In this document: piece by piece, positions 186 through 63,219 of the stretch
Layout of the letters: every line of letters starts with the position of its first letter
How positions within the stretch are numbered: the stretch's first letter is position 1
Assembly: GCA_038087875.1 (NCBI GenBank)
Contig: CM075992.1
Span: forward strand, 3,660,001 to 3,724,000
Length of the DNA: 64,000 nucleotides
Direction: 5' to 3'
DNA from: Malacoraja senta
Lineage: Eukaryota
The notes under the pieces: generated by a model
Told to the model about the DNA's origin: nothing
Databases searched by the model: none
The model's input: only the letters and a program-made list of their open reading frames with translations
Program-made: the position numbers and the translations under genes

Positions 186-1059
186 CGGGAATCTTAAAAT
201 CAATATTGGAATTAACACATGACTCATGACATTGACATGAATTTTACATCACCATTGTGGAATCCGGTTTCTTCATTTGCTCTTTTAAAGTTAATTGAGG
301 TAATTATTTCATTTAATCTTGTTATTTGAATTTCACGGCAATTTACATACATACAATAATAACAGACAGTAATAATCAAGGCATAATTGTACAACAGTAT
401 GTAAGCGATCCTCAAAACCCTTACCCTTACCCACCTTCAACCCACCCAAGTCAGGTCGGAGCCAAACACTCACATACGTACACATCCACACACAAATGGT
501 AGAATAGACGAAAAAAAATGTGCTATGTAAAAATAAAAATAGAAAAAATAAAAATAAAAAAATATATATATATATACATATATATCTAAATAAACAATTG
601 TAGGGAGGGGGGGATTAAGGGGAAAGCAGCTGCTGTATAACAAAACGATGATGGAGAACACTCAGTCCTCTTCTGAGTCCGGGAATTGAGGTCATTATTA
701 TTGATTAAAACACAATTACACTAAAACCAAGGAGAAAAGAATAATAATAAAAGTGTTTAAGAAGGAACTGCAGATGCTGGAAAATCGAAGGTAGACAAAA
801 ATGCTGGAGAAACTCAGTGGGTGCAGCAGCATCTATGGAGCGAAGGAAATAGGCGACGTTTCGGGCCGAAACGTTGAGCATACGTTTAGAAGGGAATGTC
901 ATAGATGCTGGTTGACATTCAAAGACATGCCTAGAGAAAGTAGTATCCAGGTGGGTCACAGAGATGAGGGGGGGGGGGGGATGTGGATGGGGAAAGATGG
1001 GTGGGGGATGGGGGGTTTTTGTAGGGGGGGGGGGGCAGAAAGCAGAGGGGTTGTTAGAG

Positions 1060-1590
1060 GCTACCTAAAATTGGCGCGTTCAATGTTCATACCACTGGGT
1101 CGTTCAATGTTCATACCATTGGGTCGTAAGCTACCCAAGCGGAATAGGAGGTGCTGTTCCTCCAGTTTGCGTGTTTAGTTTATTGTCACGTGTACCGAGG
1201 TATCGTTGCGTGCTAACCCAGTCTGCGGAAAGACAGCACATGATTACAATCGAGCCGTCCACAGCGTACAGATACACGATAGAGGGAATAACGTTTCGTG
1301 CAATGTTAAGTCTGGCAGTGGAGGAGGCCCAGGGCAGAAGGGTCAGTGTGGGATTGGGAAGAGGAGTTTAAACGGTGGGCAACCGGGAGATCCGGCTGGA
1401 CTTGGCAAACGAGCACAAGTGTTCGGCAAAAACGGTCGCTGATTCTACGCTTTGTCCTGTCGATGTGGAAGAGCCCATTTCGGGAACAAGGTGAGGTGAA
1501 GGTGAACCTCTATCTCACCTGGAAGGACTGCTGGCGTCCCTGGATGGAGGTGAGGGGGCAGGTATAGGGACAGGTGTTACATCTCCTGCA
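1060..1590 (-). mobile_element. Degenerate Penelope-like GIY-YIG fragment interrupted by a Rex1-type 3' fragment (~1172-1310)
   Basis: Similar to the left arm of the 53647 palindrome (aatatgaggtgctgttcctcc, ggtgaacctct, ggacaggtgttacatctcctgc). Confidence 0.65.
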
Positions 1591-1778
1591 GACACGGGGA
1601 TTTGTTTTGCAAACCAACATCAGCAGTTCCTTGTTTGTACAAAAAGTGCTTGAAATAGTTTACAGGGAAACATCACTTACTTCCTCATTCATTCATACTT
1701 AAAAAAAATAAAAAAATTTTGACTAAAAGTTTAATCAAAAGTGACAAAATTAAGCATAATTCAAATATGTTGAGTGAG

Positions 1779-2435
1779 ACTCTCTCTTTCTCTCTCTCTC
1801 TCTCTCTCTCTTTCTCTCCTCTCTCTCTCTCTCTCTCTCTCTCTCTCTCTCTCTCCCTCTCTCTCATTTTCTGTCTCTCTCTCTCCCTCTCTCCCTCTCT
1901 CTCTATCACACACTTTTTCTCTCTCTCTCTCTCTCTCTCTCTGTCTCCTTTCCTCTCTCTCTCTCTCTCTCTCTCTCTCTCTCTCTCTCTCTCTCTCTCT
2001 ATCTCTCTCTCATTTTCTGTCTCCTTTTCTCTCTCTCTCTCTCCCCCTCTCTCTCTCTCTCTCCCTCTCTCTCCCTCTCTCTCTCTCTCTCTCTCTCTCT
2101 CTCTCTATCTCTCTCTCTATCTATCTCTCTCTCATTTTCTCTCCTTTTCTCTCTCTCCCTCTCTCTCCCTCTCTCTCCCTCTCTCTCTCTCTCTCTCTCT
2201 CTCTCTCTCTCTCTCTCTCTCTCTCTCTCTCTCTCTCTCTATTTATGTCTCTCTCTCTCACACACTTTTTCTGTGTCTCTCTCTCTGTCTCTCACTTTTT
2301 CTGTCTCTCTCTCTCTATGTCTCTCTCCTTTCCTGTCTCTCTCTCTGTCTCTCACTTTTTCTGTCTGTCTCTCTCTCTCTATCTCTCTCCTTTCCTCTCT
2401 GTCTCTGTCTCTGTCTCTCTTTTTCTGTCTGTCCT
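1779..2435. repeat. (CT)n microsatellite / low complexity
   Basis: Direct inspection. Confidence 0.95.
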
Positions 2436-2483
2436 TGTGTGTCAGGACAAGTTCAAAGTTTGACAAAATCTTTTGCTAAACAT

Positions 2484-2792
2484 TTTAGTTTAGTTTAGAG
2501 ATACAGCACGGAAACAGGCCCTTCAGCCCACTGAGTCCGCACCAACCAGCGATCCCCGCACACTGATACTATCCTACACATTAGAGACAATTTGCATTGC
2601 AAACCGAGCTAATTAACCTACAAACCTGTACGTCTTTGGAGTGCGGGAGGAAACCGGAGATCCCGGAGAAAACCCACTCAGGTCACGGGGAGAACGTACA
2701 AACTCCGTATAGACAGCACCCGTAGTCAGGATCGAACCCGGGTCCCTGGCGCTGTGAGGCAGCAACTCTACCGCTGCGCCACCGGGCCGCCC
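2484..2792 (-). mobile_element. tRNA-derived V-domain SINE (HE1-like)
   Basis: tRNA-like head (tggcgcagcggt / ggttcgatcc A and B boxes), core ggtttcctcccacactccaaagac, LINE-like tail, (ctaaa)n. Confidence 0.85.
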
Positions 2793-60681: not shown

Positions 60682-60894
60682 ACTCGTATGTTGTACAATG
60701 TGATATGACGTGCTGTCGAGATTTTCTTTCTTCTGCACACGGTGTAGATTGAAAATGATATTTAAATGCAAGTTGTTGATGTAGAGAAATAGACTGATAG
60801 AATTTAATGCTGGAATTAAGGGGCAAGTGACCAAATGGTAGAACAAGGTAGTACATTGGTTGGGGGAAGGTGGCGAGAGGGGACGGGGATCAAT

Positions 60895-61560
60895 TCCCCA
60901 TCCCCCCCCACCCCCCACGCCGCCAACCAACCCCGCACCCCCCCACACTACCCCTCACCCCCGCCACCCCCCATACACAACCCCCCACCCCCCATACACA
61001 ACCCCCCCCACCCCCCACTACCCCCACCCGCCGCCACACTGCCCCCTACTCCCCCCACAATACCCCCCACCCCTCCCCCACTACACCCCACCCCCCCATA
61101 CACAACCCCCACCTCCCCACACTACCCCCACCCCCCCATACACAACCCCCCACCCCCCCTCACACCTCCCGCCACACTACCCCCACCCCCCACATACACT
61201 ACCCCATACACAACCCCCCACCCACCCCCACACTACCCCCCACCCACCCCCACACTACCCCCCACCCCACACTCCTGCCACCCAACCCTCCACCCCCCCT
61301 ACACTACCCCCCACCCCCCACAATCCCCCACACACACAACCCCCCCCATACACAACCCCCCACCCCCACACACAACCCCTCACCCCTCCCACACAACCCC
61401 TCACCCCCCCCCCCACACACAACCCCTCACCCCCCCACACACAACCCCCCACACACAACCCCCCCAAACACAACCCCCCCCACACACACACCCCCCACCC
61501 ACCCCCACATACAACCCCTCACCCCCCCACACACAGAACTTCCCCACCCTACCCCCCCAC
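60895..61560. repeat. C-rich low complexity (acacaacccc / acactacccc)
   Basis: Direct inspection; G-run rich on the minus strand. Confidence 0.9.
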
Positions 61561-61834
61561 AGCTAGCCAGTTGAGTTGAGTTTATTGTCACGTGTACCGA
61601 GGTACAGTGACAAGCTTTTGCTGTGTACTACAGTCAGTAGAAATACAATACATGATTTACAATCGAGTCATCACAGCATACAGATGGATACATGATAAAG
61701 GGAATAGCGTGAATGATATTTAGTGCAAGATAAAGCCAGTAAAGTCAGATCAAAGATAGTCTGAGGGTCTCCAATGAGATAGATAGTAGTTCAGGACTGC
61801 TCTCTAGTTGTGGTCTTTGGCAAGCAACACCACT

Positions 61835-62280
61835 GACAATAGACAATAGACAATAGGTGCAGGAGCAGGCCATTTGGCCCTTCGAGCCAGCACCGCCATT
61901 CAATGTGATCATGGCTGATCATCCCCAATCAGTGCCCCGTTCCAGCCTTCTCCCCATATCCCCTGATTCCGCTATTTTTAAGAGCCCTATCTAGCTCTCT
62001 CTTGAAAGCATCCAGAGAACCTGCCTCCACCGCCCTCTGAGGCAGAGAATTCCACAGACTCGCCACTCTCTGTGAGAAAAAGTGTTTCCTCGTCTCCGTT
62101 CTAAATGGCTTACTCCTTATTCTTAAACTGTGTGGCCCCTGGTTCTGGACTCCACCAACATCGGGAACATGTTTCCTGCCTCTAGCGTGTCCAAGCCCTT
62201 AACAATCTTATATGTTTCAATGAGATACCCTCTCATCCTTCTAAACTCCAGAGTGTACAAGCCCAGCTGCTCCATTCTCT
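61835..62280 (-). mobile_element. CR1 3' fragment
   Basis: LGLYTLEFRRMRG; (ctattgt)n tail. Confidence 0.85.
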
Positions 62281-63036
62281 GCCATTGCCAGGGTGCACTA
62301 CACAAGGAGGCAAGGAGAACAATTGTCCTGTTGTCAGTCGCAAACTCCACCACAATTCACTGCTGTTTGCGCACATCTGCAACATCCCTCCCCAGGGAGT
62401 TAAACCTGCCCTGCAGTATTCCTGAAAAGCCACCCTGTGCCTTTAGTACAGCAGCTGCAGACCAGCGTTAGACAACAGCCCTGCAAACTGGCTCACTGAA
62501 GCCAGACAACAAAATGCTGGAGTAACTCAGCGGGACAGGCAGCATCTCTGGAGAGAAGAAATAGGTGATGTTTCGGGGCGAGACAATAGACAATAGGTGC
62601 AGGAGCCAGCACCGCCATTCAATATGATTATGGCTGATCATCCACAATCAGTACCCCGTTCCTGCCTTCTCGCCATATCCCTTGACTCCACTATCAATAA
62701 GAGCTCTATCTAACTCTCTCTTGAAAGCATCCAGAGAATTGGCCTCCCTTCTGAAGCAGAGACTTCCACAGACTGACAACTCTCTGGGTGAAAAAGCTAT
62801 TCCTCATCTCCGTTCTAAATGGCCGACCTCTAATTCTTAAACTGTGGCCCCTGGTTCTGGATTCTTCTTCAGACTGAGACCCTTCTTCAGACTTAGATTT
62901 TGCAGACTTCTTGGAAAGAAAAAATGTTAAAACTACATTATTAACAAGTAACAACTCTATCTCGGCACGCCCGAGATTTCTGCATCTTGGCTTCTGGTTT
63001 CATGTTTGCTCCAAACCTAATCATTCCATCAGAGGT

Positions 63037-63219
63037 ACACATAAATGCTGGAGAAACTCAGCGGGTGCAGCAGCATCTATGGAGCGAAGGAGATAGGCAA
63101 CGTTTCGGCCCGAAACGTTGCCTATCTCCTTCGCTCCATAGATGCAGCTGCACCCGCTGAGTTTCTCCAGCATTTTTTGTGTACCTTCGATTTTCCAGCA
63201 TCTGCAGCTCCTTCTTTAA
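63037..63219. mobile_element. Penelope-derived fold-back short element
   Basis: Near-perfect hairpin centred on aacgtttcggcccgaaacgtt; 15-bp TSD cattccatcagaggt (63022-63036, 63220-63234). Confidence 0.85.

What the first reader, a model, noticed from the sequence alone, without database searches (positions are those of the whole stretch)
752..63219. High-copy Penelope-derived short elements carrying a minimal hammerhead ribozyme motif (retrozyme-like family)
Seen: a ~130-nt repeat present in dozens of copies contains CTGAAGA-A-[GGGTCTCGACCC or GGGTTTCGGCCC]-GAAACGT(C/T). This is the CUGANGA...GAAA hammerhead core with stem II preserved in two sequence variants and a palindromic ACGU helix III ending in GUC/GUU. 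Intact copies lie at 10339, 21430, 32427, 47822 and 54898, and the same repeat is the terminus of the GIY-YIG element at 53647-55027. Established: Penelope-like elements carry minimal type I hammerheads that cleave as dimers. Inference: what looks like an ordinary SINE here is a non-autonomous, ribozyme-bearing Penelope derivative spread through this genome. Caveat: helix I (cagt / acc) pairs weakly, so many copies may be inactive.
Basis: partly seen in the sequence, partly recalled or inferred. Interest (0 to 1): 0.8.

Follow-up and report, generated by a model that had tools for sequence, protein, structure and literature searches.

The report
Penelope retrotransposon stubs with minimal hammerheads
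About a tenth of this skate- or ray-like DNA consists of short end pieces of a known kind of jumping gene (Penelope-like) that carry an already described minimal self-cutting RNA motif; the pieces are decaying, are predicted not to cut RNA on their own, and are likely by-products of the jumping gene's copying enzyme running off the front of its RNA rather than a separate ribozyme element.

Summary
Observation confirmed: 69 repeat pieces cover 9.6% of the window; 8 match a full minimal type I hammerhead, 0 in 200 shuffles. The repeat is the terminal repeat (pLTR plus optional tail) of GIY-YIG Penelope-like elements, likely Neptune type, in a cartilaginous fish. Copies have two fixed 3' ends about 35 nt apart. 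Five head-to-head pairs carry 12-15 bp target duplications, each with one tailed and one tail-less arm. Each of four short-copy subfamilies has a member that runs on into 3' UTR. 5' ends cluster 20-30 nt before the cleavage site, often after an extra G, not at it. The core decays as fast as its neighbours (5.2% vs 4.7%), helix I has 2 bp, and four RNA runs show no cut-end pile-up. Best reading: abortive insertions of autonomous elements, likely run-off cDNA from the RNA 5' end, not a retrozyme family. The motif, and its mass occurrence in truncated Penelope copies, was published in 2014 (PMC4209133). This scan has reported the same family and reading on other genomes. New member of a known kind; interest 0.27.

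The parts
54898..54925 (+). Minimal type I hammerhead core, 4-bp stem II with UUCG loop, ACGU palindrome, GUU triplet; predicted cut between 54925 and 54926 (B subfamily, used as reference numbering)
54893..54897 (+). TCAGT: 5' strand of the 2-bp helix I; initiator-like and also 3'-splice-site-like (motif labels recalled); the zone where short copies begin
54926..54993 (+). Rest of the pLTR up to the proximal 3' end (54991-54993); pyrimidine run, ATG at 54948, predicted stem-loop
54994..55027 (+). Optional 34-35 nt tail up to the distal 3' end (55026); predicted to pair back with 54946-54953 and with the hammerhead core
54308..54781 (+). GIY-YIG endonuclease frame with CX4CX2C linker, 5'-truncated, no RT; stop 117 nt before the hammerhead core
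53647..55027 (.). One insertion: tail-less inverted arm (minus; endonuclease 53872-54294, degenerate hammerhead) head-to-head with a tailed plus arm; 15-bp target duplication at 53632 and 55028
24573..24791 (.). Head-to-head stub pair, one tailed and one tail-less arm, 14-bp target duplication
56902..57333 (.). Head-to-head pair around 203 nt of other repeat DNA, one tailed and one tail-less arm, 12-bp target duplication
60203..60422 (.). Head-to-head stub pair with an internal 34-bp duplication, 14-bp target duplication
63037..63219 (.). Head-to-head stub pair joined in stem II, 15-bp target duplication
14489..14723 (-). One insertion with 3.4 tandem 51-bp units: three intact hammerheads plus one lacking stem II; tail-less; 15-bp target duplication
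47687..47948 (+). Plain 5'-truncated B copy starting in the last codons of the endonuclease frame; intact motif at 47822; tailed; 14-bp target duplication
10339..10366 (-). Intact A-type motif; its 3' UTR leads up to an endonuclease remnant at 11008-11124
21430..21457 (-). Intact A-type motif with a 3' UTR shared with the 32457 copy (183 nt, 95%)
32427..32454 (-). Intact A-type motif; upstream lie a second UTR copy with an interrupted hammerhead start near 33000 and an endonuclease remnant at 33216-33332
30737..31735 (-). Endonuclease remnant (31544-31735), interrupted by a LINE 3' piece, then 3' UTR and a decayed hammerhead at 30834
16879..17387 (-). Endonuclease remnant (17262-17387), 3' UTR with a nested inverted stub (17081-17175 plus), hammerhead with one extra A in the core
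752..63219 (.). Whole family: 69 pieces of 30-135 bp on both strands

Best explanation
The repeats are the terminal repeat (pLTR, with or without a 35-nt tail) of endonuclease-bearing Penelope-like retrotransposons, likely of the Neptune type, and most are likely abortive insertions in which the element's enzyme copied only the 100-135 nt between its priming sites and the 5' end of its RNA. Shown: the repeat ends GIY-YIG frames of several subfamilies; it has two fixed 3' ends; young insertions have 12-15 bp target duplications; head-to-head pairs have one tailed and one tail-less arm; 5' ends cluster at 54893-54908, upstream of the cut site; copies decay neutrally. Inferred from the Anolis element (PMC11167929): the protein nicks both target strands and starts reverse transcription at two internal RNA sites about 35 nt apart, which would give one tailed and one tail-less arm joined head to head. 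Inferred and least sure: the RNA starts at the TCAGT just before the core, so the enzyme runs off there, adds one or more G and sometimes jumps back to make short tandems. The template was uncut RNA, since copies reach 20-30 nt past the cut site. The hammerhead is likely kept by selection only in the master elements, where it would need a partner copy and the element's protein to fold. The scattered copies are passengers predicted not to cut host RNA.
For: Endonuclease frames lie upstream on the same strand for copies at 54895, 53739, 47819, 30834, 16968, 10369 and near 33000. The closest named homologs are shark and ray proteins at 59-70% identity. 3' ends in reads: 55026 (669, 1715 and 322 records in X21, X24, X17) and 54991-54993 (1321 in X24; 282 and 288 in X17). 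5 of 5 head-to-head pairs with a 12-15 bp duplication have exactly one tailed arm (17 minus/plus neighbours examined, 12 without a duplication above 9 bp). Each of four subfamily motifs has UTR-linked and short members: 1+18, 4+7, 3+7, 1+3. 40 of 60 non-UTR pieces start at 54893-54908, 13 of them at 54895-54897. Unrelated flanks join at 54895/54896 in 1418 and 1055 reads (X24), 534 reads (X21, 54896) and 127 and 149 contigs (X16), agreement 0.32-0.42. G precedes the start in 7 of 8 window copies starting at 54895-54896 (6 of 7 events, p=0.005), and 4 of 6 listed joints landing on 54895 carry a single G. Core substitution is 23/446 vs 89/1880 downstream, p=0.71; catalytic G12 sits in a CpG and is altered in 11 of 56. 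All 5 subfamily-level differences inside the motif are fold-compatible and none is in the 11 core bases. The hammerhead-compatible fold is 10.5 kcal/mol above the minimum for the tailed B RNA.
Against: No full-length element or 5' pLTR-ORF junction was available (no genome held), so the transcription start is inferred. No pile-up of read starts and no template-switch tag appeared at 54895 in four RNA runs (1-6% of each read; most loose-end rows not shown). The loose-end consensus ends in G in only 2 of 5 rows at 54895/54896. The G in the 25595/25608 pair can come from a fold-back on a UTR palindrome. The youngest tandem copy starts at the C before A54895 without G, and its units include 2-3 more upstream bases. 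5' ends spread over about 30 nt, 6 of them at 54908. The largest subfamily has 18 short copies for 1 UTR-linked one, which a non-autonomous master would also give. Zero core differences between subfamilies is not significant alone (p=0.21). For two A-type copies the hammerhead-compatible fold is only 1.7 kcal/mol above the minimum.
Confidence: 0.66

Rival explanations
1. Same origin as stubs of autonomous elements, but the 5' ends are ordinary early truncations: the enzyme starts at the 3' pLTR of a long RNA and stalls at the structured hammerhead region or at the pyrimidine run behind it. No transcription start is involved.
For: At least 9 of 69 pieces do read through into the UTR. 5' ends spread from 54893 to 54921, with a second cluster in the palindromic stem II region of B copies. 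The core is predicted to be paired with the tail. Heavy 5' truncation is general for Penelope-like elements (PMC8557442, passages).
Against: Stalling should fall at the 3' foot of a helix, yet 13 of 60 copies pass the whole motif and stop within 3 nt at 54895-54897, 7 of 8 at 54895-54896 after a G. The same two positions take unrelated flanks in reads and contigs.
Confidence: 0.16
2. One reading: an independent non-autonomous, retrozyme-like element. Short RNAs from short copies are processed by the hammerhead, perhaps circularised, and reinserted by the Penelope enzyme in trans.
For: The end segment is 4-9 times deeper than the endonuclease segment in four runs (a rough measure, 85% likeness filter). 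Tandems exist: a 51-bp trimer of intact motifs, and 131-, 66- and 34-bp units. pLTRs can act in trans in a rotifer (PMC3846280, passages). A 2026 preprint derives vertebrate retrozymes from pLTRs and finds them in one chondrichthyan (10.64898/2026.07.22.740005, parts 1-3).
Against: Tandem units differ in length and phase at each locus, sit inside single target duplications and join at short shared letters, as template jumps would. No unit boundary lies at the cut site. Every main subfamily has a UTR-linked member. The motif is minimal with 2-bp helix I, not the canonical type that defines expressed retrozymes (PMC7229834, passages). Copies decay neutrally. The double-hammerhead fold of the trimer is 26 kcal/mol above the minimum (-42.3 vs -68.3).
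Confidence: 0.11
3. The boundary is a 3' splice site (pyrimidine run, CAG, then T54897). Short copies come from spliced RNA with a very short first exon ending in G, which would lengthen helix I to 3-4 bp and switch the ribozyme on.
For: In Drosophila virilis Penelope the intron ends at the 5' side of helix I and splicing changes the hammerhead (PMC4209133, main text and Fig. S3). Here a long pyrimidine run and CAG precede the core. Four copies begin with GG before TCTG or TTTG, and 28691 would form 4 bp of helix I.
Against: The G-starting copies share no sequence further upstream. No GT..AG joint appears among the listed joints in RNA runs (254 and 9 rows not shown, and a donor outside the laid stretch would be missed). 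In D. virilis the start site lies about 120 nt before the intron end (PMC2377424, passages), longer than anything seen here.
Confidence: 0.06
4. An ordinary SINE whose hammerhead-like letters are chance.
For: No Rfam match at gathering score; almost no compensatory change.
Against: The motif fits the published consensus letter for letter, lies where published Penelope hammerheads lie, and all subfamily changes inside it keep the fold. The repeat is joined to GIY-YIG frames.
Confidence: 0.01

Closest known systems
Minimal hammerheads (min-HHR) in pLTRs of metazoan Penelope-like elements, Cervera and De la Pena 2014 (PMC4209133; parts 1-2 of 4 of the main text and parts 1-2 of 3 of supplement file 2 read; supplement file 1 not available)
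   Same: Consensus CUGANGAH-G..C-GAAA-N-palindrome-NUH, an extra unpaired base before stem II, no helix III loop, location in the terminal repeat, thousands of single copies 'probably related to truncated PLEs', and opposite-strand pairs. The nearest row is the Acropora digitifera Neptune motif (4-bp stem II, 4-nt loop, CGUC).
   Different: Helix I is 2 bp, against 3-5 bp in most rows (2 bp also in D. virilis, Culex, Oikopleura). No chondrichthyan is named in supplement file 2. Local density here is very high.
EN+ Penelope-like elements, Neptune clade (PMC8557442 and PMC3846280, passages)
   Same: C-terminal GIY-YIG with CX2-5CxxC linker, strong 5' truncation, an adjacent inverted 5'-truncated copy, a 30-40 bp tail on one end only, target duplications.
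   Different: Target duplications are 12-15 bp (8-10 bp in the rotifer). Most insertions hold only 100-135 nt and start in a narrow zone. Clade not tested by RT phylogeny.
Anolis Poseidon element PAc in vitro (PMC11167929; parts 1-2 of 4 read)
   Same: Two internal priming sites bracketing the tail, both target strands cut and extended, uncut RNA as the main template, no RNA-seq reads ending at the cut site.
   Different: Different clade. In PAc the ORF starts at stem II; here the ORF start is unknown. Protein-assisted cleavage was shown for PAc and is untested here.
Metazoan non-LTR retrozymes (PMC7229834, passages; bioRxiv 10.64898/2026.07.22.740005, parts 1-3 of 5, supplements closed)
   Same: Type I hammerhead, non-coding, related to pLTRs. 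The 51-bp trimer fits the preprint's tandem definition and its shortest reported unit length.
   Different: Dispersed rather than arrayed, minimal rather than canonical motif, no common unit length, no evidence of circular RNA or of separate propagation.

Membership tests
PLE minimal hammerhead (Cervera 2014) | Core CUGANGA + unpaired H + G10.1-C11.1 stem II + GAAA + NUH | tested here: met
   8 exact matches, 0 in 200 shuffles; consensus
PLE minimal hammerhead (Cervera 2014) | Palindromic 15.2-16.2, no helix III loop, so active only as a dimer | tested here: met
   ACGU in all 8; C 52/56 and G 42/55 across pieces
PLE minimal hammerhead (Cervera 2014) | Short helix I (3 bp in the consensus, 2-5 bp in examples) | tested here: inconclusive
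   2 bp; third pair A.C in 21 of 22; 2-bp cases are published
PLE minimal hammerhead (Cervera 2014) | Located in the pLTR of a Penelope-like element | tested here: met
   117 nt behind the endonuclease stop at 54781; further linked copies
PLE minimal hammerhead (Cervera 2014) | Self-cleavage as dimer or with protein | not testable with these tools
   Folding disfavours the active form; no cut-end pile-up in four RNA runs
EN+ Penelope-like element, Neptune clade | C-terminal GIY-YIG endonuclease | tested here: met
   Pfam PF01541 just above cut-off; 44-70% identity to 25 longer proteins
EN+ Penelope-like element, Neptune clade | CX2-5CxxC linker before the endonuclease (Neptune and Nematis) | tested here: met
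   CX4CX2C at residues 24-32 of the frame (feature)
EN+ Penelope-like element, Neptune clade | Telomerase-like RT in the same ORF and RT placement in Neptune | not testable with these tools
   No RT part in the window; close homologs carry RT; no named clade references held
EN+ Penelope-like element, Neptune clade | 30-40 bp tail on one end, inverted 5'-truncated copy, target duplication | tested here: met
   34-35 nt between the two ends; 5 pairs with 12-15 bp duplication and one tail each
EN+ Penelope-like element, Neptune clade | Promoter and 5' intron in the pLTR | tested here: inconclusive
   TCAGT fits either label; no start pile-up or splice joint listed
Non-LTR retrozyme | Canonical type I hammerhead with 6-bp helix I and loop contact | tested here: not met
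   Minimal motif, 2-bp helix I
Non-LTR retrozyme | Tandem units each with a hammerhead | tested here: not met
   3 of 69 pieces form one intact tandem (51 bp); other tandems are broken or of other lengths
Non-LTR retrozyme | Expressed as self-cleaved linear and circular RNA | not testable with these tools
   Only polyA and single-cell libraries were available
Non-LTR retrozyme | Propagates as a lineage separate from the autonomous element | tested here: inconclusive
   4 of 4 main subfamilies have a UTR-linked member; one window only
tRNA-derived SINE | Pol III head with A and B boxes | not tested
   Not scanned; the 5' part of the repeat is accounted for by the hammerhead

The most novel reading that the evidence does not exclude
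These stubs are a genome-scale fossil record of the first step of Penelope transposition. The element's RNA begins at the first bases of its hammerhead. A dimeric enzyme primes both nicked target strands at two sites 35 nt apart, each preceded by a copy of the same 8-nt motif, and most events end as cap-bounded strong-stop cDNA. The tail pairs back onto the catalytic core and holds the ribozyme off until protein binds, so cleavage would remove a 30-nt capped leader only at a set stage.
Probability: 0.3. Interest if true: 0.55.

Novelty: new member of a known kind. Interest (0 to 1): 0.27.

Why it matters
As a ribozyme discovery it matters little: minimal hammerheads in Penelope terminal repeats, and their mass occurrence in truncated copies in vertebrate genomes, were published in 2014. 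What is useful is that cartilaginous fish hold very many young stubs with clean target duplications. Their ends allow a statistical test of open points in Penelope transposition: where the RNA starts, whether both strands are primed at different RNA sites, and why the ribozyme is kept when the template is uncut. It also warns that hammerhead motif counts in these genomes mostly count decaying passengers.

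Tried and rejected
Whole genome: none held, so no genome-wide count or tree. Rfam gathering scan: 0 of 4227 families; the E-value mode was not run. A 22-nt degenerate motif gave 0 loci in viral contigs and 11 in metagenome contigs; all 11 were chance, with HMM matches limited to the motif and no Penelope protein. 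A full-length homolog found no related locus in viral contigs. Run search: no RNA holder listed. RNA 5' or cut ends: no pile-up in X21, X24, X22 or X23, and no template-switch tag in the 6 rows shown for each single-cell run; these runs are of related species, are diluted by many transcribed copies, and neither support nor refute a start site. ORF start at ATG 54948: A and B differ by 3 nt and keep the frame in 11 of 15 tailed copies, but 4 of 5 such A copies have an in-frame stop, and the peptide matches none of 106 fetched proteins, so it is not established. Covariation: 1 compensatory cell in 188 for stem II and none in helix I or the two long-range helices; uninformative, because most pairs are invariant. 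Orientation test against the host gene: only one VCP/p97 exon lies in the window, so gene extent is unknown; 40 minus vs 29 plus, p=0.23. Cut-site-defined 5' ends were rejected. Literature: searches listed no paper on this chondrichthyan family or on cap-bounded Penelope stubs (listings only; most subscription journals and Repbase not covered; the preprint's supplements may list this family).

Full report
Observation. The repeat is real and more abundant than stated. An HMM from 10 window copies finds 69 pieces covering 9.6% of the window and none in the reversed window. Of 28 pieces that span the motif, 11 keep all core bases. There are two broad types: A, 46 pieces with median divergence 10%, and B, 19 pieces with median 2.4%. 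Rfam finds nothing at gathering score. Positions below use the B copy at 54895-55027 as reference; the predicted cut lies between 54925 and 54926.

Host and parent element. The frame at 54308-54781 is a GIY-YIG endonuclease with a CX4CX2C linker, the mark of the Neptune and Nematis clades (PMC8557442, passages). Its best named homologs are shark and ray proteins at 59-70% identity, so the host is a cartilaginous fish; skate or ray is my inference. Neptune is inferred from the linker and from a preprint that found only Neptune and Poseidon in vertebrates. No RT lies in the window. Endonuclease remnants of several diverged subfamilies lie upstream of repeat copies on the same strand at 31544, 17262, 33216 and 11008, each followed by a pyrimidine-rich UTR that ends in TCAGT or CAGT and the core. 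The repeat is therefore the terminal repeat of coding Penelope-like elements.

3' ends and insertion marks. Copies end at two places. In reads and contigs, loose ends pile up behind 55026 and behind 54991-54993, 34-35 nt apart. This is the 30-40 bp tail known from these elements, which in the Anolis element is the stretch between two reverse-transcription start sites (PMC11167929). Of 17 minus/plus neighbours examined, five have an exact 12-15 bp flanking duplication, and each of the five has one tailed and one tail-less arm; 6 of 2000 random pairs reached 12 letters or more. Two single insertions, at 14489 and 47687, also have 14-15 bp duplications. Each end is preceded by a copy of the same 8-nt motif, at 54972 and 54999. 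I infer priming of both target strands at two RNA sites, in line with the Anolis enzyme, which cuts and extends both strands and is predicted to be a dimer.

5' ends. Nine pieces are shown to continue into the UTR. Of the other 60, 40 start at 54893-54908: 8 at the alignment limit 54893, some of which may continue into a UTR, and 13 at 54895-54897. None starts at 54925-54929 (a looser alignment placed 2 there). Unrelated flanks join at 54895 and 54896 in thousands of reads and in 127 and 149 contigs. A G precedes the start in 7 of 8 window copies starting at 54895-54896 (6 of 7 events, p=0.005) and in 4 of 6 listed joints that land on 54895. Against this, the loose-end consensus ends in G in only 2 of 5 rows, one G can be a fold-back product, and the young tandem copy starts one base earlier without G. 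That reverse transcriptases add bases opposite a cap, and that TCAGT fits an initiator, is recalled knowledge. The templates were in any case uncut RNAs. The best reading is run-off at the RNA 5' end; stalling and a splice acceptor remain open.

Is it a separate family? Four subfamily motifs at 54954-54960 each occur in both UTR-linked and short copies (1+18, 4+7, 3+7, 1+3). Tandems have units of 51, 66, 131 and 34 bp, each private to one locus, and the 51-bp array lies inside one target duplication. This fits template jumping during a single insertion. The end segment is 4-9 times deeper than the endonuclease segment in four runs, which both readings predict. One window cannot exclude a non-autonomous master for the largest subfamily.

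Is the ribozyme active? In copies, core bases change at 5.2% and downstream bases at 4.7% (p=0.71); G12 and C11.1 share a CpG and are altered in 20% and 17%. The same CpG changes show in reads. Between subfamilies, the five differences inside the motif are two loop bases, a U-A/U-G swap in stem II, C/U at the cut site and a U-A/U-G swap in helix I, all compatible with the fold, and none touches the core. That suggests selection on masters but is not significant by count (p=0.21). Helix I has 2 bp. Predicted helix I probability is about 0 in five copies, the tailed B RNA pairs its core with the tail, and the double-hammerhead fold of the trimer lies 26 kcal/mol above the minimum. Two A copies are only 1.7 kcal/mol from a compatible fold. 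No read ends pile up at the cut site in four RNA runs, a weak test that matches the Anolis result. Published minimal hammerheads cleave poorly as dimers, and the Anolis one only with protein.

Comparison and novelty. The motif fits the 2014 consensus, and that paper already reports thousands of single copies tied to truncated elements and opposite-strand pairs. No chondrichthyan is named in its supplement file 2; file 1 could not be read. It works like the end of an autonomous Penelope-like element and meets the testable membership features; it fails the canonical-motif and tandem tests for retrozymes. I noted the run-off idea before reading earlier scan notes. Those notes hold 21 findings in at least 6 genomes, and the ones shown reach the same reading; they are repeats by similar agents, not independent evidence.

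Verdict. Observation confirmed, interpretation partly supported, new member of a known kind, interest 0.27. The most novel open reading is cap-bounded strong-stop insertion with twin priming and a tail-held ribozyme (probability 0.3, interest 0.55).

Noticed in passing
window 6161-6294 (-): One exon of a VCP/p97-type ATPase (residues about 272-315, AG/GT bounded). No other exon of the gene was found in the window, so the upstream intron exceeds 57 kb or the exon is isolated. If the rest is intron, 6 of 8 intact hammerheads, including the trimer, lie in sense orientation.
   Followed up: partly
window 14489-14723 (-): 3.4 tandem 51-bp units with three intact hammerheads in one young insertion: a ready natural substrate for a dimer cleavage test.
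   Followed up: yes
window 54972-54979 and 54999-55006: The same 8-nt motif occurs twice, 27 nt apart in B and 30 in A, once before each 3' end; both copies can pair with 54948-54953. It may mark two protein-binding sites.
   Followed up: partly
window 54948-55025: ATG frame through pLTR and tail; the A/B length difference is 3 nt, but most A copies have an in-frame stop.
   Followed up: partly
window 50086-50381, 10193-10346, 9088-9207, 10071-10143, 60307-60371, 13177-13407: Short tandem duplications of the repeat with units of about 131, 66, 66, 34, 34 and 123 bp, each private to its locus.
   Followed up: partly
window 45297-47201 (-), 36820-37545 (-), 22384-22953 (-), 58811-59242 (-), 7303-8624 (+), 22001-23029 (+): Many reverse-transcriptase pieces of other LINE families (CR1/L2-like by recall), some inserted into Penelope ends near 31000-31540 and 33000.
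   Followed up: no
window 51243-51785 (+): Frame resembling the C-terminal end of another non-LTR retrotransposon, with a CxCG motif (label recalled).
   Followed up: no
window 28960-29427: 16 copies of a 30-bp unit adjoining a LINE 3' end.
   Followed up: no
reads laid on window 54300-55030 and 54865-54965: Strand skew: single-cell reads lie about 6 to 1 on the minus strand, and one polyA run is 2-3 to 1 skewed over the endonuclease frame. It may reflect oligo-dT priming on the purine-rich antisense UTR or antisense host transcripts.
   Followed up: no
window 53647-55027: The two arms are 98% identical over the 312 nt compared and include a perfect 297-nt inverted repeat: a very young insertion.
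   Followed up: yes
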